A DNA stretch of 39,948 nt from a virus. Shown piece by piece: positions 4,986 through 37,531 of the stretch (position 1 is the first letter of the stretch; each line of letters starts with the position of its first letter). The translations under genes were made by a program, and so were the position numbers. The stretch lies in UHGV virus genome UHGV-0205111. One strand, 5' to 3'. The notes below the pieces were generated by a model. That model was not told the origin of the DNA. It did no database searches and worked only from the letters and a program-made list of their open reading frames with translations.

Positions 4986-5441
4986 ATGGAAATGATATTA
5001 GACATATATAAAAAAGTATCGAAAGATGCATCTAAAGAACAAATTATAGATAACATGATTGCGTCACTAGCTCAAAAAGTAAAAAAAGATTGCCCGGAAG
5101 AATACAAAAAGATTTTTTTAATAATGCACAACGAAATATACGATGGGCATTTTTGCGAATGTTTGGCCAAGAAAGCAGTATCAGAAATGGAAAATGCCGA
5201 TGGAACACATGGCGGCCATTGGACGAAAGAACAGACTATGTCTGTCATGAATCAATATAACGTCAAAGCAGATATAAACGACTGGCACTATGTCATGAAT
5301 ATGATGTACAGTGATTACTGTAAAATCATTGGCGAAGACATCGGCATGTATGCTCATTTAGCTGATGCATATATTAATGATATTGATGCGCCAAAGGACA
5401 AAGCGTTTAGAATTTATTTGGCCACGCATGAAATTGATTAG
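4986..5441 (+). CDS. Hypothetical helical protein, gene 5 of the module
   Basis: ENADGTHGGHWTKEQT and DWHYVMNMMYSDY motifs; RBS GGAGAG. Confidence 0.75.
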   Translation: MEMILDIYKKVSKDASKEQIIDNMIASLAQKVKKDCPEEYKKIFLIMHNEIYDGHFCECLAKKAVSEMENADGTHGGHWTKEQTMSVMNQYNVKADINDWHYVMNMMYSDYCKIIGEDIGMYAHLADAYINDIDAPKDKAFRIYLATHEID

Positions 5442-5463
5442 CTATAATTAATCAATTTCATGC
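5426..5463. repeat. Perfect 15-bp inverted repeat
   Basis: GCATGAAATTGATTA-N8-TAATCAATTTCATGC overlapping the stop codon of 4986..5441. Confidence 0.85.
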
Positions 5464-5478
5464 ATATAAAATAAAAGA

Positions 5479-5522
5479 CCTCAATTAGTATTGTATGGAA
5501 GACTAGAAGATACTAATTGAGG
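5479..5522. other. Candidate attP for the serine integrase
   Basis: CCTCAATTAGTAT-N18-ATACTAATTGAGG, 44 bp, directly downstream of the integrase; symmetry centre at AG 5500-5501. Confidence 0.55.
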
Positions 5523-8513: not shown

Positions 8514-8721
8514 TCCTTATAAAAGATATAGCCCCGCCCACGATTGGACGGGGCTATTACATTACGTTCGACATATTATGCGATATGCCGGACTACCTTT
8601 CGATAGTCTCCATGTCACGCTGCTTGCATCGTAAGTATGCGATGTAGTGTAGTGGAGTGTAGTGGAGTAGGACTATATAATTTTGCATCCTTACGATGCA
8701 AAAAGACTCAGCGCCGTCGCT

Positions 8722-11490: not shown

Positions 11491-12420
11491 ATGTATTTGA
11501 AAAGAACAGTAACGGCAGGGAATGTTGTCGAGATAACAAAATATCATACGTCAAGATATAAGCCACCCTTTCAAGCAAGACGGGGCAGTCAGAAAAAGAC
11601 GAATGAACAACAATGGAAAATCAACGAAAAAAATTCCATTGACGGATTACGGCTGCTGATACTGAACAATTTCAAAAAAGAGGACGTACGCCTTGATCTG
11701 ACATATGCTGGTGAAGAACCGGACGAAAAAGAAGCAACAAGGAGAATCAACAATTTCTTGACAAAGCTACGACGCCACTACAGAAAAGAAGGAAAAGAAC
11801 TAAGGTGGATAATCACAACGGAACTGGACGGACACCGAATCCACCATCATTTATTGGTCAATAACATTGGCTGGGGACGGTCGACATATAACGAACTTTG
11901 GCCATGGGCGAACATGACGTATAAGTCGTTTCGTTACTATGATGGCGGTGTAGAAGATGCGGCACGAGTTGCAGCGTACTTTGTTAAAGAGACGAGAAAG
12001 ACATTTGTACAAAAAGACCGCTTGCAAAAGAGCCGATACAGAGCCAGCCGCAACTTGAAAAAACCAAGTGTAGAAAAAGAGGTTATTCAGTCCAAAACAT
12101 GGCGAGAACCAAAAGCCCCGAAAGGGTACTATATTGAAAAGCCGATTATCTACGGCAATACAGCCTTTGGGTATCCGTATATGTTTTACCGACTGATAAA
12201 ACTAGGAGGTGTGGGAAATTCGCTATCTCATTCAAAAAAGTCCGGCAGCATATCGACCGATTGCCGCCGGAATCGTAAACACGCTGCTGGTACGAAAGAA
12301 TCGGTGCATGGCAGCGGGCGAAGAAATCAATTTTGTAGAAGTGTACGAAAAGAAGCGGACGGGACAAGAATGCCTGTGCGTCATCGAAAGAGTGTACGAA
12401 AAAAAGCTGATCAAGTTTAG
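11491..12420 (+). CDS. HUH-family rolling-circle replication initiator-like protein
   Basis: Motif I LDLTY, motif II RIHHHLLV, motif III AAYFVKE. Confidence 0.8.
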   Translation: MYLKRTVTAGNVVEITKYHTSRYKPPFQARRGSQKKTNEQQWKINEKNSIDGLRLLILNNFKKEDVRLDLTYAGEEPDEKEATRRINNFLTKLRRHYRKEGKELRWIITTELDGHRIHHHLLVNNIGWGRSTYNELWPWANMTYKSFRYYDGGVEDAARVAAYFVKETRKTFVQKDRLQKSRYRASRNLKKPSVEKEVIQSKTWREPKAPKGYYIEKPIIYGNTAFGYPYMFYRLIKLGGVGNSLSHSKKSGSISTDCRRNRKHAAGTKESVHGSGRRNQFCRSVRKEADGTRMPVRHRKSVRKKADQV

Positions 12421-21474: not shown

Positions 21475-23755
21475 TATCTACATGCTGCAGGCAGCGTTTA
21501 CGACGGGCGAAATATCACCGGCCGTCGGAAACCGCGTTGATTTAGACAAATACAAGTCGGCCCTGCTAAATGCGGAAAACACAGTTATTCGACCGTATGG
21601 CGGCTGTTATAGACGGCAGGGGAGCAAGTATATAGGCGAATTGAAATACAGCGATAAAGACGCCGTATTGGTGAATTTCTATGATACAGAAAATTCAGCG
21701 TATTTATTGGAAGTAGGCGTGCAGTATATACGAATATGGAAAGATGGCGTATATACAGGTACTGAACTGGCAACGCCGTACCAGTATCCTAAACAATTGC
21801 AGTTTACCCAATCGGCGGATGTGATGTTTATATGCTCCGGTATTTATCCTGTAAAACAGTTGCGGCACTTGCAAAACGGGTGGGATGTTATTGACTTTGC
21901 AATTGATGACCAGTACTATGACTTGCTATTGGAAAAAAACTCGTCAGAAAATAAAATCAGAACATCCGGCACCAGTGGGAATATTACTATCACGTCCAAT
22001 CAAGCTATTTTTCAATCCGGGATGGAAGGCGGCTATTTAAAAATATCGCATGATATGCCGTCACAAACGGAAAGCTGGGAATGCAAAGGCGATACGAACG
22101 GCTCAACGACCAGCGCAAGCATTTTTGTTGGTGAAAAGTGGAAATTTGTTACACATGGAACCCATCATTACAAAGTAGTTATACAGAAATCAAAAGACAA
22201 TGTGACGTGGCACGACTTCCGGACATATACATCAAACGACGATACCAATTACACGGAATCAGGAGCAGAAACGGAACCATGCTATATGCGATTTGTGGCA
22301 CAGGCGTGGAATGATGATGAAGCAAGTAAGAGTCACGTAACCGTTGATCTAACACGATTATCTTATGTACATACAGGGTGTGTAAAAATAACCGGCATTA
22401 CATCGGCGACAGTAGCAAGCGGAACCGTGGTAGCCGGGGCGACAATCGGAAAACACGGTATTGGAAGCACAGAAAGTACGGCAGATTATGCGTTTTCCAG
22501 TTGGTCAAACTATTTCGGCTACCCGACACAATCATGCTTTTTTCAAGACAGATTATGCTTTGCGGCAACAGCTAGACAGCCGTACTCTATCTGGATGAGC
22601 CGTACGGGAGATTACGGTAATTTCAGCGTGGAAAAAGTAGATGGTACATTAACGGATGACAGCGCCGTCAAGTTAGATTTAATCGTCCGCAATGCATATC
22701 AGATACGGCATATGATACCGTCTAATGATTTAGTGATTCTCACAAGCGGCAATGAATGGGTAATCAGCGGCGATAGTGCCATTACACCAAGTAAAGTTTT
22801 CCCGAAAGCACAGACCATGCGCGGCTCGTCAACGTGCCTGCCGCAGCATATCGGCAACCGTATCATTCACGTGCAGCGGTCTGGATCGACGGTGCGTGAT
22901 TTGGGATACCAGTACGAATCAGACAACTACAACGGCGATGAATTAGACATATTAGCAACACATCTAGTAAAAGATCATCGGCTCATATCATCGGCATATT
23001 GCCAAGAACCGGATTCGACGCTATTTTTTGTGCGAGATGACGGCGTGCTGCTGGCATTCACGATTATTCGCGAACAGCAGGTATTCGCTTGGTCCCGTTT
23101 TATAACCGATGGGAAATATAAGTGGATATGCACGATACCGGCAGATGAAAACGACGAACTGTACGCTATTGTAGAACGTACAATAAACGGTACGCAAAAA
23201 CGCTACATTGAACGGTTTAAAGCCATGCATGACGATACAGACGAATATGTAGACAGCTACGCAACGGGAAGCGGTAATAGCATTTCGCTGCCGCACCTAG
23301 CGGGAAAAACAATAGCAGTTGTTGGCGATGGCATACAGCAGCGTAACGAAATAGTGCCGGGAAACGGCGTTGTACAACTGCAGGAAACATATAAGAAAAT
23401 TATAGCCGGATTGCCGTATATGACCAAAATAGAACAGCCGGGCGCAGAAATCAGTTTGCAGGAAGGAACGCTGCAGGCGCGAGTAAATAAAATCAATGCC
23501 GTAACGTTACGCGTAGAAAATACGTACGGTGGCCGTATTGGGTTGAACTTTAAAAGGATGGATGAATTGAAATATGACGATGAATATAAACTATTTACCG
23601 GGGATATTGTGCAAAGTGTGCCGCTGTATGACGTCGGCGCAAATACACGCAATCATTTATGTATTATGAGTGATGAACCATATCCTTTTCAATTAAACGC
23701 AATTATCAAGGAGGTATCTGTAGATGGCGGTATGGTCAAGAGCTATACGGGTTAA
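21467..23755 (+). CDS. Tail tubular protein B / nozzle (gp12-like)
   Basis: AFTTGEISP, GGCYRRQG, YPTQSCFFQDRLCFA, WMSRTGDYGNF. Confidence 0.88.
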   Translation: MANIYMLQAAFTTGEISPAVGNRVDLDKYKSALLNAENTVIRPYGGCYRRQGSKYIGELKYSDKDAVLVNFYDTENSAYLLEVGVQYIRIWKDGVYTGTELATPYQYPKQLQFTQSADVMFICSGIYPVKQLRHLQNGWDVIDFAIDDQYYDLLLEKNSSENKIRTSGTSGNITITSNQAIFQSGMEGGYLKISHDMPSQTESWECKGDTNGSTTSASIFVGEKWKFVTHGTHHYKVVIQKSKDNVTWHDFRTYTSNDDTNYTESGAETEPCYMRFVAQAWNDDEASKSHVTVDLTRLSYVHTGCVKITGITSATVASGTVVAGATIGKHGIGSTESTADYAFSSWSNYFGYPTQSCFFQDRLCFAATARQPYSIWMSRTGDYGNFSVEKVDGTLTDDSAVKLDLIVRNAYQIRHMIPSNDLVILTSGNEWVISGDSAITPSKVFPKAQTMRGSSTCLPQHIGNRIIHVQRSGSTVRDLGYQYESDNYNGDELDILATHLVKDHRLISSAYCQEPDSTLFFVRDDGVLLAFTIIREQQVFAWSRFITDGKYKWICTIPADENDELYAIVERTINGTQKRYIERFKAMHDDTDEYVDSYATGSGNSISLPHLAGKTIAVVGDGIQQRNEIVPGNGVVQLQETYKKIIAGLPYMTKIEQPGAEISLQEGTLQARVNKINAVTLRVENTYGGRIGLNFKRMDELKYDDEYKLFTGDIVQSVPLYDVGANTRNHLCIMSDEPYPFQLNAIIKEVSVDGGMVKSYTG

Positions 23756-24188
23756 ACAAATCACAAAAAATGAATGGCAGGATGTGCGATGGCTGCTAAA
23801 CCATTTACGGCAAACAGATAACATGGAGCTGTCACTCACAGAAACCGACGTAGAAAAAGATTTATTCAACGATGAGTTTTGCAATTACATAGCCTACTTG
23901 GGAGATAGACCGCTTTTTATCGGCGGCATATCGAGAAAAACATATACCGGCTATGGGCACATGATATGGGCCGTATGCCGGTACGATACGTATGATAAAT
24001 ACAAACGGGAATGGGTGCGCGTCAGTAATGCACTGATGGCAAACTGGAAACATCAGTACGGCCAGCTATGGAACATGATATTAGAACGCAACGATGTGTC
24101 CAAACGCTGGTTGAAACGAATGGGTGCGACATTTTCTGATCCATTTATATACAACGGCGCAAACTGGCAGTTATTTAGAATTGGTTAA
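23724..24188 (+). CDS. GNAT-like / T7 gp13-like protein
   Basis: LRQTDNMEL...N.VSKRWLKRMGATF; position after the nozzle. Confidence 0.7.
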   Translation: MAVWSRAIRVKQITKNEWQDVRWLLNHLRQTDNMELSLTETDVEKDLFNDEFCNYIAYLGDRPLFIGGISRKTYTGYGHMIWAVCRYDTYDKYKREWVRVSNALMANWKHQYGQLWNMILERNDVSKRWLKRMGATFSDPFIYNGANWQLFRIG

Positions 24189-24198
24189 AATTATTTAA

Positions 24199-24228
24199 GT
24201 CGCATCGTGTGGGTGCGAGGATTGAAAT
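24199..24228 (+). CRISPR. Solitary type I-C CRISPR-like repeat (no array, no cas genes)
   Basis: GTCGCATCGTGTGGGTGCGAGGATTGAAAT has the I-C 5' GTCGC, TCGCA/TGCGA stem and 3' GGATTGAAAT; single copy in a 59-bp intergenic gap. Confidence 0.65.
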
Positions 24229-24247
24229 AGAATTGAGGTGAATCATA

Positions 24248-25045
24248 ATGTGCAGTCCGGCATGGATGATAGGATTACAAGCAGTACAAGGGTTAAACCA
24301 ATACAATCAAACCAAACAGCAGTATAACGCAAACATTGCCATGGCGAATCAGCAGGCACAAACAGCAGAGCAAAATGCAAAAATACAAGAAAAGAAAGAA
24401 GAACAAACGGCGGAACAATACGCCAGTAAACAAGCACAGCTCAATGCGCGCATGAAACTAGCGGCAGGGCAAGCAACGGCACAGGCAGGAGCCAATGGTG
24501 TAATGCTGTCCGGCTCACCGCTAGATTCATTATCATCAAGCTATCAGGCGTGGAATGATGACAGCGCAACACTGCTGCAGAATCAACGGAATGATATATG
24601 GGGCCAAGAAATAAACAGGAAAAACTATATCAATCAAGCGAACGCATACAGAGCTAGTGCGGCAAATTTAAATGCACAAAAACAAGATGCATTGTGGGGT
24701 ACGCTGCTTACAACAGCGGCCGGCATATACGGTATCAAAAGAGCCTATGGCAGTGCGTCTAAAGCAACGGCAGGAGATAATACGATGAAGCTGGGACCAC
24801 AAGCGACTATTACAAGCCCGGCAGCATATCAGGCGTATACATTTGGCAGCAGTTCAAATGGTATCAAAACCACTTTAAACAGTGGGCTGTTTGGTAGTAA
24901 AGCAGGGAAAAACTATACTCTTAAATACCCGTGGAGCAGGAAATTCAGGTGGCAGTCTACGGCAATACGGCCGGTTAACTTGGATGCGGCAAGCTTAAAA
25001 TATGATGGGCCAATTCGCCCGGTTAATTTAGACAAATGGATGTAA
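24248..25045 (+). CDS. Internal virion (ejection) protein, gp14-like
   Basis: MC N-terminus, Ala/Gln-rich, GANGVMLSGSPLD motif. Confidence 0.75.
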   Translation: MCSPAWMIGLQAVQGLNQYNQTKQQYNANIAMANQQAQTAEQNAKIQEKKEEQTAEQYASKQAQLNARMKLAAGQATAQAGANGVMLSGSPLDSLSSSYQAWNDDSATLLQNQRNDIWGQEINRKNYINQANAYRASAANLNAQKQDALWGTLLTTAAGIYGIKRAYGSASKATAGDNTMKLGPQATITSPAAYQAYTFGSSSNGIKTTLNSGLFGSKAGKNYTLKYPWSRKFRWQSTAIRPVNLDAASLKYDGPIRPVNLDKWM

Positions 25046-27889: not shown

Positions 27890-30800
27890 ATGGCAGAATA
27901 TGAATTTAAACCAGGTAATATTGAAGATGCTATTAATAAAAACGGAGAAACATTTTCGAATCCCATTAATATATTACCGACAGAAGAAGAAAAAGAGCAA
28001 ATAGCAGCAGACGTACAGCAGGAACAAGAAGAAAACTATGCTAAGCTGGATGCTATTATGGCTTCCGGCCAGCCGGTCCGGCGTAAAATGCCAGATTTAG
28101 TAACGATACCGAAAATATACGGAAAATCACTGAGCATGCCGGAAGCAACACGGGGCTGGGATGATTTAGGTATAGGTGAGAAACTGCTTTACGGTACGCA
28201 AGAAAAACTATGGGATGTGTACCGAAATGTAACAAATGACCAAGCACATATATTAAGTGATGCAAGACGATATGCACCGTCTATTGGCGTAACGCCGCAG
28301 TATTTAGTAGATAATCCGGATGAAATGGAACGGGCACGACTGGAATATGATAGAAAACAAAAATTAGGCTTTATGCCGGTCGATGAAAACTATTCATCTG
28401 GTATGCTGGATGCAAATTACCCGGAACTCAAAGATATACGGCTGTCAGACCCCGTGGGAGCCGCACAAGCATTGCAAAACTATCAAGACGTACACGGCAT
28501 GCGGAATATTTTTGACAGTATTCACGACACTATTTTTGGTGTGAAAGAATTGCTTTTGGATGCCTATAACAGCGGCTCGGATATGGTAAAACTGTACGAT
28601 GCACAAATGAAAGCTGTTAAAACTGGCGACGTAGAAGCGGCACGCCCGGAAGTAGACGAAATTACACAGCGGCTCAAAGAATATCACGAACAAGATGAGC
28701 CGACTACACCGCTGGGCAAAGTAGTGTATGATACGATTCAGCAGCTAACGATTTACGGTACGCAGGGATTGAGAGCCTTACAGTATGTGCCAAAAGGTAT
28801 GGCTATGGCGATGGCAGCAGCAGCCCCTGCCGCTGCGGCAGCAGGGCCGGAAACATTAGGGGCAGGAACAGCGGCGATATTGACAGGCGCGGGCATAACC
28901 GGTGCGGCTTGGGGATTCCGCACGGGCATGTTTAAAGAAATACAAAATCAATCCATGGCAGAACGGTACTGGCAGATGGCAAACGCTAAAGACAAAAACG
29001 GCAAACCTATGTACAGCCGAAACAACATGCTACTGGATTCGATAGGAACGGGAACCATCAATGGGGCTATAGAACTGGGGTTGCTGGAACTGGGATATAA
29101 ACCGATAAAAGCCGCCTGGGGAAAAGATGCAGCCAAAGCGATATTGACAAACGGTGCAGCACAACGGGACATCGCCGAAGCCGGAAAAGGGGCGATTGCT
29201 CGTATTGCCTTGACACAGGGAGCTTTGCAGTATGCCCGCGGTGTAGCGTCTGAACTGGCAGAAGAAGGCGCGCAGTCTGTCGTAGGCAGCATGGCAGAAA
29301 ATATTGAATACGGTATCCATGGGCAAGGGAAATGGAACACCGTAGGCGATGTACTAAACGATGCAATAGATTCTATGGTGCAAGCTGTACCGGCAGCTCT
29401 CGGTATGGGCGGCATGGGTGCTGCAGTGCATACAGCTGGAAACTATAAAGCTATGAATAACATAGCTAGTATCAAACTGAATGAATGGAAAGAAGAATAT
29501 AAACGCAACGTGGAGAAACAGACTATTGATCAGCTGATAGCGCAGAAAAAAGAAAATAACTTGGCAAAAGAAGCACCGGACGTATACCAAAAAGTCGTCG
29601 ATGCGCAAGCAAAACAAGTCGGTATGGATACGATGTATGTAGACGCACAAGAGCTGGCACGGACAGAAGCAGGCGTAAACGTGTTAAATGACATGGTCAA
29701 TAAAGGCATAGTAAGCGGCGAACAAGTAGATAATGCCGTATCAAACGGCACAGACTTGGAAATCAAAACCGGCGTATTTGCACAGCTGGCAGACGAAACG
29801 ACAGATACTCAAACGCTGATGGATGCTACAACCATGAATAAAGGCGGCGTTCATATGGCAGCATTGCGCGAACGGGCAAAACGCATTGAAGCGATGCGGC
29901 AGGAATTGTCACAACTGGCTAACGATAAATCGGATAAGCTGGCAGAAGAAATCGTGCAGGAACATTTTAAAGATGCAGACGAACCGATGCAGGAAGCGGC
30001 GCGCGATGTCGTATATAGAAATCCGTATGATATAGAAAAAAGCTATAAAGATGCGGTCAAAGAAGCACGAAACGAATATGAAAACGCTGTAAATTATACA
30101 TATTACAGCACGTATAAACCGCAAGGCGTATCGATTGTTACAGCAGATGCAAACGGATACAACAACACCCAGACAGGCCGCGGCTATCGCATGAGCGAAA
30201 ATGAACCATGGTACAGCGATATGTATAAAGAATATGGCGGCAAAGCGACGAAAGAGCAACTGCTGGATGTAGCGTATAAAAATGAACGCAAAGAAATTGC
30301 CGCGTCGTCTCCGGAACTGTTGCAGGAATGGGAAAACAACGTGGCAGAAAAGAAAGCACGATATGAAACACTAAAAGGGATGGAAGAAAAATTTTCGGCT
30401 CTAGCTAAAAGCGACTATGCCCTTAGAAACACATTTACAAAAGACGGCGCAAGCGTGTATACGCAGGCATTGCACACTCTATCTAATGCCAGTGAACAAG
30501 CAAGCCAAGCAGCAAAAGAAAACGCATTTATCTATGCCCGCATGGCCGAACGCTGGACTAATATCATGAACGAATACGGCGATACAGCGTATACACCGAA
30601 AAAATTTATGGAACAGCATCCGATTGTGGCAGGCAATAAAAAAGCCGGCACCTATGGCCAGCCAATTACAAATATGGATATTCAACTAGATAAGCCTGCT
30701 CCGGTAATTACTATCAAAGAAAAATATGCGGGGATGGATTGGAAGGACTTACGAAAACAACTGCCTGGAACCGTAGAAAACGATATTGTTTCCAAGATAA

Positions 30801-33800
30801 ATGAAAAAGGGGAATATATCCCGTATGTTAATGAAGCGACGAAAAATAAAGTTATTGTCACGAAAAAAGGTTCTTTGAGCCATTTTAAATCAGATAAGAC
30901 AAGTAGCCCGGACTCGACAAAAAAACGACAGAACACGTTGCATTATGAAATGATAGAAGCTGTTCCGGAAATCATTAAGAGAGGAATATGGATTGAAGAC
31001 CATATAGATCGACATCAAAAAGCCATATACGTTTCACGGATTATTGCGCCGGTACAAATTGGCGCACATATATATGCTGTTAAATTAACCGTAAAAAAAG
31101 ACGAAAATAAATATTTATTAGAAAGCGGAGAATACACACACTTTAGAGCATATGATATAGAAACAGAAGAAGAACCCAAAAGTGGCAGTACCTCTACCAA
31201 CTCCGACGCAAGGCCTGATCATCAGCAGCCAATACCACTTTTGAGTTCTTCTAATTTAAGTATACGTGAGCTGCTAAAGAATGTCAATGATGGACTAAAA
31301 CACGGTCCTTATGTTAATAATGACGGCACCCCAAACTATGGCATTTATTTCGGGGACAATGAAACAGGCGGGGTAATGTATATTACGCCGAAAGATACCA
31401 CATACGAGCAGCGCGCATGGCACGGATCACCACATGATTTTAATAAATTTGATTTGGGATATATTGGAACGGGAGAAGGTTTTAATAATCATGGGTATGG
31501 ATTGTATTTTAGTAAATCGAAAAAGATAGCACAAGAATATAAAAAGAGACTGGGAAAAAATATTGGGAAATTATATGAGGCAGAAATACCAGACGAAAAG
31601 GACATGCTAAATGAAGATGTGCTATATAAACGTTTACCACAAAGCATAAAAAACGGCATAAAAAAAGTATACCAAGAACTGGATGCCACACAGAAAAATA
31701 TTTTCACATCCCAAATTATAGAAGAAGACAGACCAACAGCAGAAGAAAATAAAATCCTTAGTCAGTTAAAAGAAATCCAAAAAGTAAGAGAAAATTTAGA
31801 AATGCTGTCAAAGGGAGAACCAATTAAAGGGCTGCGTAAGGCGAGAATAAAAAAAGAATTACTAAAAGCAAATTTTAAAGAAGAACAAATAGAACAATTA
31901 TTTAATGATTTTGGGTATGCTGAACAAATAAAAGGATCCTATTTAAATGAAAACGCACAGCTGGAAAGCAAGTTAAGAAAAAAGCAGCAGCTAATAGAAA
32001 ATAGAATACAAATACATAACAATGAATTAAAAAACAATCTATTCGACTATTTAGAGAAGACTGCAAGCGGCTATGCTTCTGGACGCGGTATTTATCATGC
32101 ATTATCAGAGGCACTCGATGGAGATGCAAGAAAAGCAAGTGCGTTATTAAATAAAAATGGGATAAAAGGAATAATTTATGATGGACGAGGAGAGGGACGT
32201 TGCTATGTTGTCTTTGATGATAAAGCGATTTCTATCATTGATAAGCACAACCAAGATGGGGCAATATACGAGCAGCGTGCATGGCATGGCAGCCCGTATA
32301 ATTTTGACACATTTGATTTAGGTGCGATGGGCAAGGGGGAAGGACATCAGGCCCATGGCTGGGGACTGTATTTTGCTAAAGATCGAAACGTATCAGAAGC
32401 CTATAAAAAAGTTTTGGGAGATAAAAACACCTCGATAGAAGTAAACCAGACTATATATCGGCTTAATGAAGATGGCGATTGGGCAGTGCCATGGGGAAAC
32501 GTAATCAAATACGGCAGTGCCATGGGGTACGTATTGGATTCAATGCACGAAAAGGGAAGCAGAGAAAAAGCGATTGCTGATTTAAAAGACGCATTGAAAA
32601 GAAATAGAATCAGAGGAGTTTATGCAGATGAGGCTAGAAAAGCAATTGGAATTTTAAAAGAGGGAAATATAAAACTGAATAAAACCGACCGGCTGTATGA
32701 AGTAGAAATTCCTGAAAACGATGTGCTGCTTGATGAACAAAAAACAATAGGGGAACAACCGCAAAAAGTACAAGATGCGATTATGGATATGTTGTTTGGC
32801 AGGAATGTCAACGCAGCATTGCGGGAAGCAGAGAAAAAAGGCGGCGTAGAGGGAAAATTTGCAGTGGAAAAAGCACTGCGGTATATCAGTGAAGACGAAG
32901 ATGAATTGAAAGCTCGCGGCATTTCTGAGGAAGAAGTGGAACATGCGTATAACAAAGCATTAGAATACGTCGATGAAGAGTTACTCTTGAAAGCACAGGA
33001 AGAAAAGTTAAGCTATGAAGACCCCGAAAAGCCGCATTTGGAAGAAGGACATAAGGACAAATATAAAGTAAAAGAATTAACTGGTGAAGAATTTTATAAT
33101 GAGTTAGCAATGTCTACGCCAGGATATGATGAAGCGGCGTCAAAATTGTTAAATGAATACGGTATTAAAGGCATAACGTATGAAGGAGAAAGAGATGGCC
33201 GCTGTTATGTCGTTTTTGATGACCAAGCGATTTCTATTATAGACAAGTATAATCAGCAGCTAAACGGCGTCAAAGCGGCCTATAATGCTAATACCGGGGC
33301 GATCCATCTATTTGATGCGGCCGACCAGTCCTCATTTATCCATGAGGCTGGGCATATGTGGCTGTCTGAAATGAAAAACATGGCCATGCAGGAAGGTGCA
33401 CCGGAACAATTAATCAAGGACTTGGATGTTTTGACTGCATGGGGTACATACAGCCCGGAAAAAATGAACGACTATGCCGGTACAAATCGTGAAAAAGAAT
33501 TTGCGGAATACGCTAAAGCCATAGAAGATGCCCGCAAAAGCGGCGATGCCATTGCAATTAAAGCAGCAGAAGAACGCTGGATGCAGGAACGATTCGCAAG
33601 AGCCTTTGAAAGGTATATAGCAGACGGCAAAGCACCGGTACGGGAATTGCAAGGGCCGTTCCGGAAATTTAAGAAATGGCTGATTGGTATCTATCAAGAC
33701 CTTAAAAACTTGGGAAAAGAACCGCCGGAAGACGTAAAACGCGTTATGGACAGAATGCTTGCAACGGATGAAGAAATAGAAACATGGGCAAAGCTGCGGG

Positions 33801-36800
33801 AAATAAACGCATGGGACAGAAAAGGATTTAGCGGCGATTTATCCGGCAGTGAAGGGAACATGATAAAGAAATGGGCCGAAAAAATCAGAGAAACAGCCAA
33901 AGAAAAGCTGATGCAGAAATATATGGAAGACATCAAAAAACAAGATGAAGCGGATCGACAGCGCGGACTGGAAGAAGAAAAAATAGCGTATCAAAAACAG
34001 CTGTGCGAAGAAAACGAACTCTATAAATATGAAAACCTGTATAATACCATGCCGGAAGCCAGAGCAGGTATTTTGGCAAAATTGAATATTGCGGATGAAA
34101 AAGAATTTAGAAAAGCCATGCAAGAAGCGGGCGGCACATTGGAAGAACGTACCCATGAATATATGAAAGCCAAACAAGAAGAATATGATGCGCTGATGTA
34201 TTCGCCGGAACAAATCAGAACGATGGCCGATGAGCAGCTGGCGTCTACCAATGGCCAAATAGCACTCAATGAATTAGAAGCCCATGCGATGCGGCGAAAA
34301 CTAAACAGCTATATTGCTGAATGCGTAAAAGCTATGCGAGAAGTAGGAAATGTATCCGGCACGGATGCGGAAGTAGCCGCACAACTGCGTAACATATTGC
34401 ATGTGGAAGATATAGCGGATAAAGAAAAAGCCGCTAAAGGGGCCATGAAAGACAGTATACTGGCCAAAAGTAAAGAAATAGCAGACCTCAAAAAACGGCT
34501 GGCAGAAACAAAAGAAAAAGGAAAAGAAACAAAAGAACAAAATGAACGGACGATTGCCCAATTAAAAGCCGGGCTGAATGAAGTCATTAAAGGATTAAAC
34601 GATGCACGCGACATGGGCAGAAGTAACTATCAATCGGTATTGCGACTGACACGGGAAGAAATGAATGATATGACCGTCGGTGATGCGACGACGTGGAGGC
34701 ATTATGAAATTAAAGCAAAATCAGCAAGCCGCCGGGCTGATGTACAGATGTCGGCAGGCAACTTTACAGAAGCTATCATAGAAAAAAACAACGCACAAAA
34801 ATTTTACTGTATGTCGCGCGTAGCTAAAGAAAATGAAGACTTCTTAAGAAAAGCCCTTGGCCATGATTACGAAGACGCTGCTACTGGAGAAGAACGGACA
34901 GGGATTGCTGGTATTATTAATCGTATCAAGAGACAAAAGAACCCTGTACGGATGGGACCAAACGAACGCTATTTTATTGAACACTTGGCGTATATCTTGG
35001 GACTTGATAATCGGGACGGCCGTATGCCACTTGATGATAAAGGCAACCCCATCGGCATAAATTGGGAATACTTGTATCGCGACTTATCACCAGATAACGC
35101 AACAGAACAGAAATCAAAATTAAATCCGGATGATTTAATTGCACCTTGGGTACGAGCCATGGTAGAGCGCAAAGACCGGATAGAAGATTATCAGAAAAAC
35201 ATCGCTATGGCACAAATGAAAGATATTTACCAAGCTATACAGGCAATTTACCGCGTAGGGAAACGGGACTATGAAGCAACAACACTAATGAATGACGGTA
35301 AAACAGTAAGTATCATCGATGCCGTAACCGAAATGCTGGCAGAACGCGATTATTCTGTAGATACAATAGAGCAAAAACTGTGGAGTGCAGAGCAGGAAGA
35401 AAATGACAAAACAGCTACGGGACGCTTAAAAGATACATTAAGCGATGCGTTGCTGTCGTTAACAAAGCCGGAAATCGTGCTAAACGACATGGGTAAATCT
35501 TTTATCAAATATATCTACAAACCAATAGATACAGCGTCACGAAATGAAATGAGTATGCTGCAGCAAGCTTATAAAGAATTCGGCGAAATTTATAATATGT
35601 ATAGCAAAACAGAATGGCGGCATATCCGGCAGGATAAGTTATACAACCTCGGAAGAATCAGCAATTACACTAAGGAACAAGTAATGACTATTGCTTTGAA
35701 CTGGGGAAATAAAGAAGGACGGCAGCGTATTTTAGACAATCTCAACGAAGGCATACAGCATGAGCATGAAAAATACACGCAGACAGATGTAGAAAATTTA
35801 TTTGCGAAAGTATTTACAGAAAAGGACTTGGACTTTTTAGAATCCGTGTGGAAACAAATAGACCAGTACTGGCCGGAACGAAATAAAGTACAAGAACGAC
35901 TGTACGGCGTAGGTCTTGGCAGAGTGCAAGCAACACCGTATACAATCAATGGTAGAAAAGTAAGCGGTGGATATTATCCAATCGTCTACGATCCGAAAAT
36001 CTCTACAAGAACAACGGATATGGAATTAGATGATATAGTTAAATCTCAATTATCGGGTAACGCGGCAATGTCCATTGGCATGGGAAGCACTAAAAAACGA
36101 GTAAAAGTAGTAAAAGGGCAAGTGGTAATGAAAAGCTTAAATATATGGCCGCAAGCAGTCAATGAAGCAATACACCATATTTGTATGCGTGAGGCCGTCA
36201 CAGACGTATACAAATTGCTAAATAGAAAAGAAATGGAAGCGGTCATAGTGCAGGACTACGGCATAGAAACGTATCAAATGCTGAAACAATGGGCGCGGGA
36301 CTGCTGGAAAACAGATATAGCCAAAACAGATAAAATATCTAGAATGTTGGAAACGCTTAGAAGAAATACCTCATATAGCGTCATGGCATATCGTGCAAGT
36401 ACAGCCATTTTGAATGTGTTAAATATATTCCCTATGATGCGTGAAATCGGATTTGCAAATACATGGATGGCATTAAAAGACGTCTATATTACAGGAAACT
36501 ATAAAAAGAACCGACAATTTGTCATGGAACACTCGCCGTTTATGGCAGAACGAATCAATACATTGGATAAGGATTTCCGGCAACACATGACCTTTGATGT
36601 TGATAAAAACGCAAGTATCATAAGTGTGAAGTCAAACGGAGTGGGAAACAAGGTACAATATATAGGGGGCATAAAAGATGGCATAAACCGGTTTGCGTAC
36701 CTTGCAATAGCCGAAACAGACTTAATGCTGTCTATGCCGCTTTGGAAATGGCAATACGAAGAATCGTTGCGGCGACAGATTGAAGAAGGAAAAACGGACG

Positions 36801-37531
36801 AACTGGTGATGCGTGACCGAGCAACCTTTGAAGCAGATAGGGCCGTACGAAATGTATTAGGGTCCGGCATGACAAAAGACCAAGCGCAAGTACAGCGAAC
36901 CCAAGGATTAGTATCTCAAATCATCCCATTTTATTCATACTGCAGCACGGTAATGAACGCGCTCATCCAAGAAGGGTACAACATTAGCGCAGGAAAAAGC
37001 AAAGTAGGCATGTGGAATGCCATGTTGTACTGGATTGTGCTTCCTACAATTTTTGAGCAGCTATTCCGATCGGCAGTAGCCGGTGACGATTGGGAAACCT
37101 TAATGAAAAAGATGGGCGTTAAAATGATTACCAATACAACGCAAGGTGTACCAGTAGTACGGGATGCGGTTGAATTTGCGGCCAATGCAGCGTTTGATTT
37201 ACCAAACTACGATAGCGGCAATGTACTGGCGATTTCCATCTTTGACGAACTGCAAAAAAGCATACAGTCGGCTGGCTCAAAAAATCAAGATGCAACCGAC
37301 GTGGCAAGACATCTGACCAGAGCTTTGAACAGATACACAGGCTTTTCTGATACCCTCACAGATGGATTCTGGTCACTGATGCGGTTTAGCTTAGTCGATA
37401 CAGATAGAAGCGTCATTGACTTGGCAAACAGCGCCATTTTTGATAGACGCTATAAAACAGCAAAAGAGAGAGAAAAAGCAGAAAAACAAAAAGAAAAGAA
37501 AAATACAAAACAGAAGGACGATAAAAAATGA
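27890..37531 (+). CDS. Giant (3213 aa) polyvalent internal virion protein with LPD-like domain, two ART-PolyVal-like domains and a zincin HExxH motif
   Basis: Two AWHGSP..F..FD...G.GEG....G.GLYF units, SFIHEAGH, and ERFARAFERY..G.AP typical of large polyvalent/ejection proteins; position before the tail fibre. Confidence 0.8.
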   Translation: MAEYEFKPGNIEDAINKNGETFSNPINILPTEEEKEQIAADVQQEQEENYAKLDAIMASGQPVRRKMPDLVTIPKIYGKSLSMPEATRGWDDLGIGEKLLYGTQEKLWDVYRNVTNDQAHILSDARRYAPSIGVTPQYLVDNPDEMERARLEYDRKQKLGFMPVDENYSSGMLDANYPELKDIRLSDPVGAAQALQNYQDVHGMRNIFDSIHDTIFGVKELLLDAYNSGSDMVKLYDAQMKAVKTGDVEAARPEVDEITQRLKEYHEQDEPTTPLGKVVYDTIQQLTIYGTQGLRALQYVPKGMAMAMAAAAPAAAAAGPETLGAGTAAILTGAGITGAAWGFRTGMFKEIQNQSMAERYWQMANAKDKNGKPMYSRNNMLLDSIGTGTINGAIELGLLELGYKPIKAAWGKDAAKAILTNGAAQRDIAEAGKGAIARIALTQGALQYARGVASELAEEGAQSVVGSMAENIEYGIHGQGKWNTVGDVLNDAIDSMVQAVPAALGMGGMGAAVHTAGNYKAMNNIASIKLNEWKEEYKRNVEKQTIDQLIAQKKENNLAKEAPDVYQKVVDAQAKQVGMDTMYVDAQELARTEAGVNVLNDMVNKGIVSGEQVDNAVSNGTDLEIKTGVFAQLADETTDTQTLMDATTMNKGGVHMAALRERAKRIEAMRQELSQLANDKSDKLAEEIVQEHFKDADEPMQEAARDVVYRNPYDIEKSYKDAVKEARNEYENAVNYTYYSTYKPQGVSIVTADANGYNNTQTGRGYRMSENEPWYSDMYKEYGGKATKEQLLDVAYKNERKEIAASSPELLQEWENNVAEKKARYETLKGMEEKFSALAKSDYALRNTFTKDGASVYTQALHTLSNASEQASQAAKENAFIYARMAERWTNIMNEYGDTAYTPKKFMEQHPIVAGNKKAGTYGQPITNMDIQLDKPAPVITIKEKYAGMDWKDLRKQLPGTVENDIVSKINEKGEYIPYVNEATKNKVIVTKKGSLSHFKSDKTSSPDSTKKRQNTLHYEMIEAVPEIIKRGIWIEDHIDRHQKAIYVSRIIAPVQIGAHIYAVKLTVKKDENKYLLESGEYTHFRAYDIETEEEPKSGSTSTNSDARPDHQQPIPLLSSSNLSIRELLKNVNDGLKHGPYVNNDGTPNYGIYFGDNETGGVMYITPKDTTYEQRAWHGSPHDFNKFDLGYIGTGEGFNNHGYGLYFSKSKKIAQEYKKRLGKNIGKLYEAEIPDEKDMLNEDVLYKRLPQSIKNGIKKVYQELDATQKNIFTSQIIEEDRPTAEENKILSQLKEIQKVRENLEMLSKGEPIKGLRKARIKKELLKANFKEEQIEQLFNDFGYAEQIKGSYLNENAQLESKLRKKQQLIENRIQIHNNELKNNLFDYLEKTASGYASGRGIYHALSEALDGDARKASALLNKNGIKGIIYDGRGEGRCYVVFDDKAISIIDKHNQDGAIYEQRAWHGSPYNFDTFDLGAMGKGEGHQAHGWGLYFAKDRNVSEAYKKVLGDKNTSIEVNQTIYRLNEDGDWAVPWGNVIKYGSAMGYVLDSMHEKGSREKAIADLKDALKRNRIRGVYADEARKAIGILKEGNIKLNKTDRLYEVEIPENDVLLDEQKTIGEQPQKVQDAIMDMLFGRNVNAALREAEKKGGVEGKFAVEKALRYISEDEDELKARGISEEEVEHAYNKALEYVDEELLLKAQEEKLSYEDPEKPHLEEGHKDKYKVKELTGEEFYNELAMSTPGYDEAASKLLNEYGIKGITYEGERDGRCYVVFDDQAISIIDKYNQQLNGVKAAYNANTGAIHLFDAADQSSFIHEAGHMWLSEMKNMAMQEGAPEQLIKDLDVLTAWGTYSPEKMNDYAGTNREKEFAEYAKAIEDARKSGDAIAIKAAEERWMQERFARAFERYIADGKAPVRELQGPFRKFKKWLIGIYQDLKNLGKEPPEDVKRVMDRMLATDEEIETWAKLREINAWDRKGFSGDLSGSEGNMIKKWAEKIRETAKEKLMQKYMEDIKKQDEADRQRGLEEEKIAYQKQLCEENELYKYENLYNTMPEARAGILAKLNIADEKEFRKAMQEAGGTLEERTHEYMKAKQEEYDALMYSPEQIRTMADEQLASTNGQIALNELEAHAMRRKLNSYIAECVKAMREVGNVSGTDAEVAAQLRNILHVEDIADKEKAAKGAMKDSILAKSKEIADLKKRLAETKEKGKETKEQNERTIAQLKAGLNEVIKGLNDARDMGRSNYQSVLRLTREEMNDMTVGDATTWRHYEIKAKSASRRADVQMSAGNFTEAIIEKNNAQKFYCMSRVAKENEDFLRKALGHDYEDAATGEERTGIAGIINRIKRQKNPVRMGPNERYFIEHLAYILGLDNRDGRMPLDDKGNPIGINWEYLYRDLSPDNATEQKSKLNPDDLIAPWVRAMVERKDRIEDYQKNIAMAQMKDIYQAIQAIYRVGKRDYEATTLMNDGKTVSIIDAVTEMLAERDYSVDTIEQKLWSAEQEENDKTATGRLKDTLSDALLSLTKPEIVLNDMGKSFIKYIYKPIDTASRNEMSMLQQAYKEFGEIYNMYSKTEWRHIRQDKLYNLGRISNYTKEQVMTIALNWGNKEGRQRILDNLNEGIQHEHEKYTQTDVENLFAKVFTEKDLDFLESVWKQIDQYWPERNKVQERLYGVGLGRVQATPYTINGRKVSGGYYPIVYDPKISTRTTDMELDDIVKSQLSGNAAMSIGMGSTKKRVKVVKGQVVMKSLNIWPQAVNEAIHHICMREAVTDVYKLLNRKEMEAVIVQDYGIETYQMLKQWARDCWKTDIAKTDKISRMLETLRRNTSYSVMAYRASTAILNVLNIFPMMREIGFANTWMALKDVYITGNYKKNRQFVMEHSPFMAERINTLDKDFRQHMTFDVDKNASIISVKSNGVGNKVQYIGGIKDGINRFAYLAIAETDLMLSMPLWKWQYEESLRRQIEEGKTDELVMRDRATFEADRAVRNVLGSGMTKDQAQVQRTQGLVSQIIPFYSYCSTVMNALIQEGYNISAGKSKVGMWNAMLYWIVLPTIFEQLFRSAVAGDDWETLMKKMGVKMITNTTQGVPVVRDAVEFAANAAFDLPNYDSGNVLAISIFDELQKSIQSAGSKNQDATDVARHLTRALNRYTGFSDTLTDGFWSLMRFSLVDTDRSVIDLANSAIFDRRYKTAKEREKAEKQKEKKNTKQKDDKK
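31165..31252 (-). ncRNA. Putative antisense small RNA inside the giant gene
   Basis: 18-bp terminal stem (31168-31185 / 31235-31252, one G-U on the minus strand) beginning at the predicted TSS of the promoter at 31259-31287. Confidence 0.5.
31259..31287 (-). promoter_or_regulatory. Near-consensus sigma-70/sigma-A promoter, antisense within the CDS
   Basis: Minus-strand TTGACA-17 nt-TATACT. Confidence 0.65.
31403..33256 (+). repeat. Tandem domain duplication (two ART-like units)
   Basis: Units ~31403-32254 and ~32267-33256 both start YEQRAWHGSP and end RCYVVFDD.AISIIDK.NQ, with divergent middles. Confidence 0.85.

What the first reader, a model, noticed from the sequence alone, without database searches (positions are those of the whole stretch)
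24199..24247. Solitary type I-C CRISPR repeat inside the late virion operon (Racr-like RNA anti-CRISPR or Cas5c processing site)
Seen: the gap between the gp13-like and gp14-like genes contains GTCGCATCGTGTGGGTGCGAGGATTGAAAT (30 nt), with a 7-bp stem (TCGCATC/GGTGCGA, one G-U) and the 3' GGATTGAAAT end. I saw no second copy and no cas genes. Known: type I-C repeats are ~32 nt of the form GTCGC-stem-GGATTGAAA(C/T) and are cut by Cas5c at the stem base, and phage solitary repeat units can act as RNA anti-CRISPRs (Racrs). Inference: this copy has no obvious promoter of its own and would ride on the abundant late mRNA. Cas5c cleavage would give a crRNA-like 5' handle followed by the RBS and start of an ejection gene. 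It could therefore be a mRNA-embedded Cascade decoy, or a way of linking ejection-protein expression to host Cas activity.
Basis: partly seen in the sequence, partly recalled or inferred. Interest (0 to 1): 0.8.

Follow-up and report, generated by a model that had tools for sequence, protein, structure and literature searches.

The report
CRISPR repeat wedged behind its PAM
A Megasphaera phage carries one worn copy of a host type I-C CRISPR repeat as a 52-base insertion that close relatives lack, sitting just after a CRISPR target motif (PAM), so it likely records the phage escaping immunity by capturing the host's repeat-plus-spacer, and it would make a guide RNA against sibling phages if it is still cut.

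Summary
The repeat is real: 24199-24228, single copy, hairpin z -3.3, 28/32 identical to the I-C repeat of a Megasphaera in the phage's host clade that has cas5c-cas8c. New: it lies in a 52-bp insertion with an 8-bp direct repeat; five fetched loci and one run hold the empty site. The geometry is PAM (TTT), first 7 target bases, 15-nt filler, repeat, full target. The same PAM-anchored bracket surrounds 11 of 134 other solitary I-C repeats in viral contigs (controls 0.1-0.2; only TTC/TTT). This points to capture of a host repeat-spacer unit at its own protospacer, which parts PAM from target without altering the gp14 ribosome site. The 35 nt after the repeat match an empty sibling 35/35 behind TTT, while the carrier's copy is flanked by repeat: a possible one-repeat guide against siblings. 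Against present activity: U-to-A at the base Cas5c reads (0 of 35 array consensus repeats), shorter stem, handle predicted paired, no acr neighbour or second repeat, minority allele, no RNA data. Verdict: most likely a CRISPR-escape scar of fading activity; a plain Racr decoy is less well supported. New variant of a known kind; interest 0.6.

The parts
23724..24188 (+). gp13-like internal virion gene; the insertion supplies an early stop (154 aa ending LFRIG; empty alleles 156 or 183 aa)
   Evidence: (phrog_308)
24164..24191 (+). weak sigma70-like site, CTGGCA-16-TAAAAT (9 of 12); the -10 lies inside the inserted filler and would start RNA near 24198; untested
   Evidence: 4 sites found, 3.2 expected in 1.2 kb
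24174..24176 (+). TTT, a type I-C PAM, which is also the Phe codon of gp13; present in filled and empty alleles
   Evidence: TTT is the second-best I-C PAM in PMC5602111
24176..24183 (+). left copy of the 8-bp direct repeat; 24177-24183 is the 7-nt remnant of the target's seed
   Evidence: (joint skips 52, 8 letters fit both sides)
24184..24198 (+). 15-nt AT-rich filler, inserted; holds the gp13 stop and the -10-like hexamer; origin not found
24199..24228 (+). solitary type I-C repeat, 30 nt: 2-nt deletion, T-to-A at handle position 1, and C-to-T (window only) against the 32-nt G033/G019 repeat
24218..24228 (+). predicted 11-nt 5' handle after Cas5c cleavage
   Evidence: inference from PMC5965381 and PMC8524198
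24229..24263 (+). spacer-position sequence, native to the phage; covers the gp14 ribosome site (24235-24240) and start codon; 35/35 identical to the empty allele L169 behind TTT
24248..25045 (+). gp14-like internal virion (ejection) gene, intact

Best explanation
The element is a 52-bp insertion of a Megasphaera-type I-C repeat between a PAM-plus-seed remnant and an intact copy of the phage sequence that follows, and it likely arose when the phage recombined with a host array spacer made from this very site, which would free the phage from that spacer; today it is probably a scar of fading activity. Inferred steps: (1) a host acquired a spacer from the site after the TTT. (2) Crossing over in the spacer, then out through the flanking repeats (or uptake of an excised repeat-spacer unit), left PAM, target copy 1, repeat, target copy 2. 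(3) Copy 1, still a target, eroded to 7 nt plus filler. (4) Copy 2 now has the repeat's 3' end where the PAM should be and would read as self, so the gp14 ribosome site and start are kept unchanged. This route is favoured here because the PAM is a Phe codon whose only synonym, TTC, is a better PAM. (5) Cutting of the late mRNA would cost gp14-16 expression, and the repeat has since changed at the base Cas5c reads.
For: Shown: filled alleles in the window, L121 and runs X1 and X3; empty alleles in L122, L166-L169 and run X5 (L122, L167 and L168 look like one allele). More distant phages (54-55% gp14 identity) also lack it. Shown: nearest repeat is in G033, which has cas5c-cas8c-cas7 and rpoB 91-94% identical to G002, G021, G029 and G032, whose genomes hold this prophage or spacers against it. 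Shown: Megasphaera I-C spacers use TTC (4 of 5 matches with at most 5 mismatches, from 306 spacers). Shown: 11 of 134 unique solitary I-C repeats have TTC or TTT plus at least 7 nt of the sequence after the repeat within 70 nt upstream; shift control mean 0.12, swap control 0.23; TTC 7, TTT 4, every other triplet at most 1. PAM-to-repeat distances are 6-34 nt, never longer than a spacer, and L264 and L041 keep a near-full 34-nt copy. Literature: spacer-phage recombination is reported (PMC8616872 citing Varble 2019), and phage mini-arrays are thought to come by recombination with host arrays. Decay: A at handle position 1 in 0 of 35 array consensus repeats; U22G almost abolishes B. halodurans Cas5c cutting.
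Against: No host spacer from this site was found (0 of 306 I-C spacers; pattern search of 39 family genomes hit only the prophage itself). TTT was not seen among the five Megasphaera PAMs. The filler matches neither target nor any fetched host locus, so step 3 is not shown for this copy. The filler has changed far more than the repeat (28-29 of 32 kept), which simple neutral decay does not predict. S. mutans Cas5c tolerates U22G. The 7-nt duplication alone is short; its weight comes from the empty alleles and the class statistic. The bracket was not seen in 17 I-F or 16 I-E solitary repeats (p about 0.06 at the I-C rate). G001, which carries the filled prophage, shows no cas8c, cas5c or I-C array (incomplete assembly).
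Confidence: 0.5

Rival explanations
1. Same origin, but the element is an active one-repeat guide. Host Cas5c would cut it and Cascade would load the 35 nt that follow, directing Cas3 at sibling phages with the empty allele while the carrier is protected. This gives superinfection exclusion and, if the cut sibling is repaired from the filled genome, homing of the insertion.
For: 35/35 match behind TTT in L169; the carrier's own full copy is preceded by AAT. 6 of 12 listed empty gp13 variants read RIEVNHNV, compatible with a match (protein level only). L122, L166, L167 and L168 carry 4-5 mismatches including seed position 2, as escapers would. I-C crRNA lacks a 3' stem-loop in the Cascade structure, so one upstream repeat could suffice (PMC7684278). 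A -10-like hexamer in the filler ends 7 nt before the repeat. The window and G001 prophages are about 91% identical overall but differ at only 3 of 535 positions around the element. The filled allele sits on three gp13 backgrounds.
Against: Changed handle base and extra U-A pair over the cut site; handle predicted paired with 24253-24258 (mean unpaired 0.24-0.25). No second repeat and no terminator on the + strand in 23500-24700. The promoter is weak, and 0 of 13 class members have one before the repeat. 8-9% of windows are as similar between the two phages, so the shared block is unremarkable. Filled is the minority: 3 of 15 listed variants, 34 of 228 contigs, with the window's own protein listed by construction. 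The variable bases lie between ribosome site and start, where variation is expected anyway.
Confidence: 0.2
2. RNA anti-CRISPR decoy: the repeat on the late mRNA titrates Cas5c and Cas7 away from host crRNAs, whatever follows it.
For: Hairpin and the last 10 nt are intact. RacrIC1 works from a bicistronic mRNA, and even a non-targeting crRNA reduced interference (PMC10651486). The subtype matches a member of the host clade.
Against: Neighbours are virion genes, not acr genes. Late transcription would come after CRISPR attack on incoming DNA (inference). Loading would cover the gp14 ribosome site. Most siblings lack it. The spacers seen against this phage come from I-E-like, I-F-like and 36-nt-repeat arrays (subtype labels recalled from repeat shape), none from I-C arrays.
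Confidence: 0.15
3. Cascade-dependent switch: the guide binds the PAM-plus-7-nt site 22 nt upstream, inside the candidate promoter, or Cas5c cutting changes gp14 translation, tying ejection-protein output to host Cas.
For: The PAM-seed site lies between the predicted -35 and -10. In the class the PAM-proximal part is the part kept: 10 of 13 shared stretches of 9 nt or more start at guide position 1-2. crRNA-like repressors work with partial matches.
Against: Only 7 contiguous nt match here, below the 9 PAM-proximal pairs used to call Cracr RNAs. Ribosome-site accessibility is similar in filled, cleaved and empty RNA (0.66, 0.67, 0.55). No benefit of lowering virion proteins is evident, and siblings lack it.
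Confidence: 0.08
4. PAM-independent accident: a repeat fragment inserted by microhomology repair at a random AT-rich site, or a chance look-alike.
For: Seven bases and an AT-rich triplet are little information; TTY makes up 5.9% of triplets upstream of solitary repeats.
Against: 28-29 of 32 identity to a host-clade repeat; the repeat's 3' end meets exactly the base after the PAM, as in 11 unrelated phages (Poisson p about 2e-15 against 0.23).
Confidence: 0.07

Closest known systems
Viral solitary repeat units and Racrs, especially RacrIC1 (Camara-Wilpert et al. 2023, PMC10651486)
   Same: One cas-less I-C repeat in a prophage intergenic position, host-subtype match, possibly carried on a polycistronic mRNA.
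   Different: No acr neighbour; inside the virion operon; 87.5% to the best repeat held; a polymorphic insertion with an empty allele and a PAM-anchored duplication. The parts of the paper read do not describe such a bracket.
Virus-borne CRISPR mini-arrays used against related viruses (Medvedeva et al. 2019, PMC6858448; Iranzo et al. 2020, PMC7099407; Faure et al. 2019 as cited there)
   Same: Host-type repeat followed by a sequence that matches a close relative but spares the carrier; target close to the array, a proximity Medvedeva et al. call unexplained.
   Different: Only one repeat, no leader; the spacer is the phage's own in-place sequence and the insertion site is the target itself.
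Cracr, CreR and CreA crRNA-like regulators (bioRxiv 10.1101/2024.10.29.618823; 10.1101/2023.03.03.530964)
   Same: Single repeat plus guide with a PAM-flanked partial match.
   Different: The partial match is 7 nt and lies in the phage 22 nt upstream, not in a cas or toxin promoter; the guide pre-existed as phage sequence.
Spacer-mediated phage-CRISPR recombination (Varble et al. 2019; seen only as cited in PMC8616872 and PMC7099407)
   Same: Crossing over between a host spacer and its phage target moves CRISPR DNA into phage genomes.
   Different: Here the product is a viable phage allele with one repeat, persisting in natural populations, not a transducing particle.

Membership tests
Solitary repeat unit (SRUFinder definition) | Intergenic, with no full or partial second repeat within 100 bp | tested here: met
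   definition read
Solitary repeat unit (SRUFinder definition) | At least 90% identity to a known repeat, bit score at least 41.1 | tested here: inconclusive
   28/32 (87.5%) for the window and 29/32 (90.6%) for L121 against 35 array consensus repeats held; the 17,823-repeat library was not available; bit score not computed
Solitary repeat unit (SRUFinder definition) | Subtype matches a host CRISPR system | tested here: inconclusive
   cas8c in 12 of 36 Megasphaera genomes, among them host-clade G033; none found in G001 or G002, which carry the prophage
Racr (RNA anti-CRISPR) | Transcribed and processed by the host Cas endoribonuclease | not testable with these tools
   no RNA holder on record; handle base changed
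Racr (RNA anti-CRISPR) | Inhibits interference | not testable with these tools
   needs an I-C assay
Racr (RNA anti-CRISPR) | Often within 1 kb of an acr gene (typical, not required) | tested here: not met
   genes within 1 kb are tail and internal virion genes
Viral CRISPR mini-array | Spacer flanked by two repeats | tested here: not met
   single copy
Viral CRISPR mini-array | Spacer matches a related virus next to a PAM and spares the carrier | tested here: met
   L169 35/35 behind TTT; carrier's copy behind AAT
Cracr / CreR regulator | At least 9 PAM-proximal pairs with a cas or toxin promoter | tested here: not met
   no TTY-plus-seed site beyond 7 nt in the window or 27 fetched Megasphaera loci; whole host genomes not scanned
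Repeat-like attP for integration into host arrays | Element is split when the phage integrates | tested here: not met
   intact inside the G001 prophage; the alignment to G001 breaks near window 5440-5495, beside the serine integrase

The most novel reading that the evidence does not exclude
A 52-bp, protein-free, RNA-guided selfish element: a CRISPR repeat inserted between a PAM and its target turns the phage's own downstream sequence into a guide, borrows host I-C Cascade-Cas3 to destroy sibling genomes with the empty site, is immune because the insertion breaks its own target, and spreads by repair from the filled copy, as homing introns do. About 8% of solitary I-C repeats in viral contigs have this layout, so it may be how one-repeat guides, decoys and mini-arrays are born.
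Probability: 0.13. Interest if true: 0.88.

Novelty: new variant of a known kind. Interest (0 to 1): 0.6.

Why it matters
Lone CRISPR repeats in phages are usually read as RNA decoys, and how phages get them is open. This locus gives a before-and-after pair in close relatives, and the PAM-anchored bracket recurs in about 8% of solitary I-C repeats, so a share of Racr candidates may be escape products or guides and not decoys. It also suggests an escape route that leaves the target sequence untouched, useful where PAM and seed lie in constrained sequence, and it may explain why mini-array spacers target sites close to the array. All the readings can be told apart with short synthetic constructs and a cloned I-C system.

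Tried and rejected
No whole genome is held for the window; it aligns end to end as a permuted phage genome. Exact element in viral contigs: 0 hits; gp13 query there: no relative. GenBank phage collection: no match for the window stretch, L398 or L227, so empty alleles of other class members were not found; only 2 of 11 were tried. Sequencing runs: no RNA holder listed, which says nothing on expression. Variation inside the repeat is known from two full copies only (window, L121); the one difference keeps pairing (C-G to U-G) but 1 of 3 differences in 535 bp is not significant. An array with A at handle position 1: only single odd repeats in G016 and G031 among 221 genomes of the order. Donor spacer: not found. 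Mirror control for the duplication gave 6 of 134, but 5 of the 6 were loci with the same kind of duplication. Promoter, start-codon and upstream-stop enrichment in the class: none significant (0 of 13 vs 8 of 121; p 0.20 and 0.11). I-F and I-E solitary repeats: 0 of 17 and 0 of 16, inconclusive; the search motifs for these two subtypes were recalled. attP role rejected (see membership test). Supplements of PMC10651486: 9 files held as text had no hit for the repeat's 3' part or 'Megasphaera'; I did not list the files, so the SRU table may not be among them. bioRxiv supplements were not seen; the Cracr tables could bear on this. No structure or complex prediction was run: no protein claim depends on it.

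Full report
Observation. It lies between a gp13-like gene (23724-24188) and a gp14-like gene (24248-25045) in the virion cluster of a temperate phage with a serine integrase. The window aligns as a circularly permuted genome to a prophage in Megasphaera assembly G001 at about 91% identity.

Host and repeat. Fourteen of 36 Megasphaera genomes hold I-C-type repeats and 12 of 36 hold cas8c. G033 has cas5c-cas8c-cas7 (the break in cas8c is at an assembly gap) and its rpoB is 91-94% identical to G002, G021, G029 and G032 (no rpoB was found in G001). G002 holds the prophage, and G001, G021, G029 and G032 hold spacers against this phage group. Those spacers come from non-I-C arrays; none of 306 I-C spacers matches the window. 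Five matches of I-C spacers to more distant prophages give TTC four times and GTC once. G001 and G002 themselves show no cas8c or cas5c, but they are incomplete assemblies of single strains.

It is an insertion. L122, L166, L167, L168 and L169 lack 52 bp at this junction; L122, L167 and L168 look like one allele. Run X5 shows the same joint, with 8 letters fitting on either side. L121 and runs X1 and X3 hold the filled form. At protein level the filled form ends gp13 at LFRIG: 3 of 15 listed cluster members (34 contigs) against 12 empty-type members (194 contigs); the cluster has 47 members, 15 were listed, and the window's own protein is among them by construction. Phages at 54-55% gp14 identity have overlapping genes and no insertion, so empty is likely ancestral.

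Geometry. The empty site reads TTT followed by AGAATTG and on into the gp14 ribosome site. The filled site reads TTT, AGAATTG, 15 nt of filler, the repeat, then AGAATTG and the unchanged continuation. The repeat's 3' end therefore meets exactly the base after a TTT, which is how a spacer sits behind a repeat in a host array. TTT was the second PAM for both acquisition and interference in one I-C system (PMC5602111, passages). The TTT is the Phe codon of gp13, whose synonym TTC is the best PAM (inference from the code).

Is the geometry chance? I dropped 91 arrays or non-matches, 12 with short flanks and 29 with a degenerate second copy; 227 solitary repeats collapsed to 134 contexts. In 11 of 134, TTC or TTT is followed by at least 7 nt identical to the sequence right after the repeat (shift control 0.12, maximum 2; swap control 0.23, maximum 1). 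TTC scored 7, TTT 4, all other triplets at most 1. Distances from PAM to repeat were 6-34 nt, and two loci keep a near-full spacer-length copy. Ten of 13 shared stretches of 9 nt or more begin at guide position 1-2 (control 2.2). The bracket was absent from 17 I-F and 16 I-E solitary repeats, a small sample (p 0.06). Earlier AI notes of this scan report the same bracket in other phages (e1-5974168, e1-3358483, e1-8013038). I read them after my own count; they draw on similar collections and are not independent support.

Mechanism. The simplest path to PAM, target, repeat, target is a crossover between phage and host array in a cognate spacer followed by exit through the repeats, or uptake of an excised repeat-spacer unit. 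These give the same product and cannot be told apart here. Spacer-phage recombination is reported (PMC8616872, passages), and recombination is the proposed source of phage mini-arrays (PMC6858448, Discussion; PMC7099407, passages). The upstream copy remains a target and erodes; the downstream copy has repeat sequence in the PAM position. Full R-loop formation is tied to Cas3 recruitment in I-C (bioRxiv 10.1101/2022.06.15.496202, passages), so a 7-nt remnant would not be cut. The insertion and its junctions are shown; the donor spacer, the recombination and the escape are inferred.

Present function. Cas5c cuts at the stem base, leaves an 11-nt handle and reads the bases just after the cut (PMC5965381 and PMC8524198, passages). 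Here the first handle base is A, found in 0 of 35 array consensus repeats and 6 of 134 solitary ones; it can pair with U2 and close the cut site, the stem is otherwise one pair shorter, and the handle is predicted to pair with 24253-24258. One Cas5c loses almost all activity on U22G and another tolerates it, so cutting is uncertain. This, the minority frequency and the cost of cutting virion mRNA favour a scar (0.5). Yet the 35 nt after the repeat match L169 at 35 of 35 behind TTT, other empty alleles have 4-5 mismatches including the seed, and the carrier's own copy follows AAT. I-C Cascade has no Cas6 cap and its crRNA lacks a 3' stem-loop (PMC7684278, passages), so one repeat might be enough. 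A -10-like hexamer inside the filler would start RNA at the repeat, but the site is weak and other class members lack one. The block around the element is nearly identical between the window and G001 (3 differences in 535 bp), as are 8-9% of windows. I give the sibling-guide reading 0.2, a plain decoy 0.15, a regulatory switch 0.08 and accident 0.07. Guide and decoy are not exclusive (PMC10651486).

Comparison and novelty. It works like the product of spacer-guided repeat capture and resembles a one-repeat mini-array. It meets the position criteria of a solitary repeat unit, sits at the identity threshold, and cannot be filed as a Racr, a Cracr (7 nt, below 9) or a mini-array (one repeat). I read PMC10651486 from abstract through discussion plus the SRUFinder method, the first two of nine parts and passages of the Cracr preprint, and passages of 10.1101/2023.03.03.530964 and PMC11656645. 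Faure 2019, Varble 2019, Nam 2012 and Leenay 2016 were seen only as cited. Seven full-text searches (listings and abstract starts) showed no description of a PAM-anchored duplication around solitary repeats; the library lacks most subscription papers, and supplements I could not see may list this locus. Verdict: new variant of a known kind, interest 0.6; the boldest reading not excluded is a protein-free homing element that borrows host Cascade (probability 0.13).

Noticed in passing
L004-L120 (for example L005, L010, L089): A large family of 27-nt shortened I-C repeats (tetraloop stem) in viral contigs, about 70 of the 117 loci, in two conserved flank types; in one type the flanks look complementary to each other. 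No PAM bracket. A likely conserved Racr-like RNA.
   Followed up: no
G001:C4:1-2500 (L724) and G001:C1:59000-72500: Eight spacers of an I-E-like array in G001 match the same assembly perfectly, at the end of the resident prophage and just beyond it; the cas1 beside the array is in two pieces. Possible self-targeting held in check by a prophage anti-CRISPR, or strain mixing in the assembly.
   Followed up: partly
L264, L041, L229, L184: Other states of the bracket: near-full 34-nt copies (L264 with two central mismatches, L041 with a first-base lesion) and TTC-flanked copies with seed mismatches (L229, L184).
   Followed up: partly
L227 and L255: In L227 the duplicated seed contains a TTGACA hexamer; in L255 a tRNA-like sequence follows the repeat. 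Candidates for Cascade-dependent self-regulation.
   Followed up: no
G015:C11 (L134), G012:C4 (L156), G008:C8 (L131): Lone I-C repeats in Megasphaera chromosomes; L156 follows a TATAAT hexamer, and L134 and L156 are followed by GC-rich hairpin-like sequence. Possible crRNA-like regulators.
   Followed up: no
window 27890-37531: 3213-aa ejection-type protein with an LPD3 domain and a weak ART-PolyVal hit below the Pfam cut-off.
   Followed up: no
window 11491-12420: The replication gene is a rolling-circle-type initiator family (phrog_3584, PF23343) in a tailed temperate phage with a serine integrase.
   Followed up: no
window 8624-8701: A 30-nt inverted repeat between divergent genes next to the repressor, a likely operator.
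   Followed up: no
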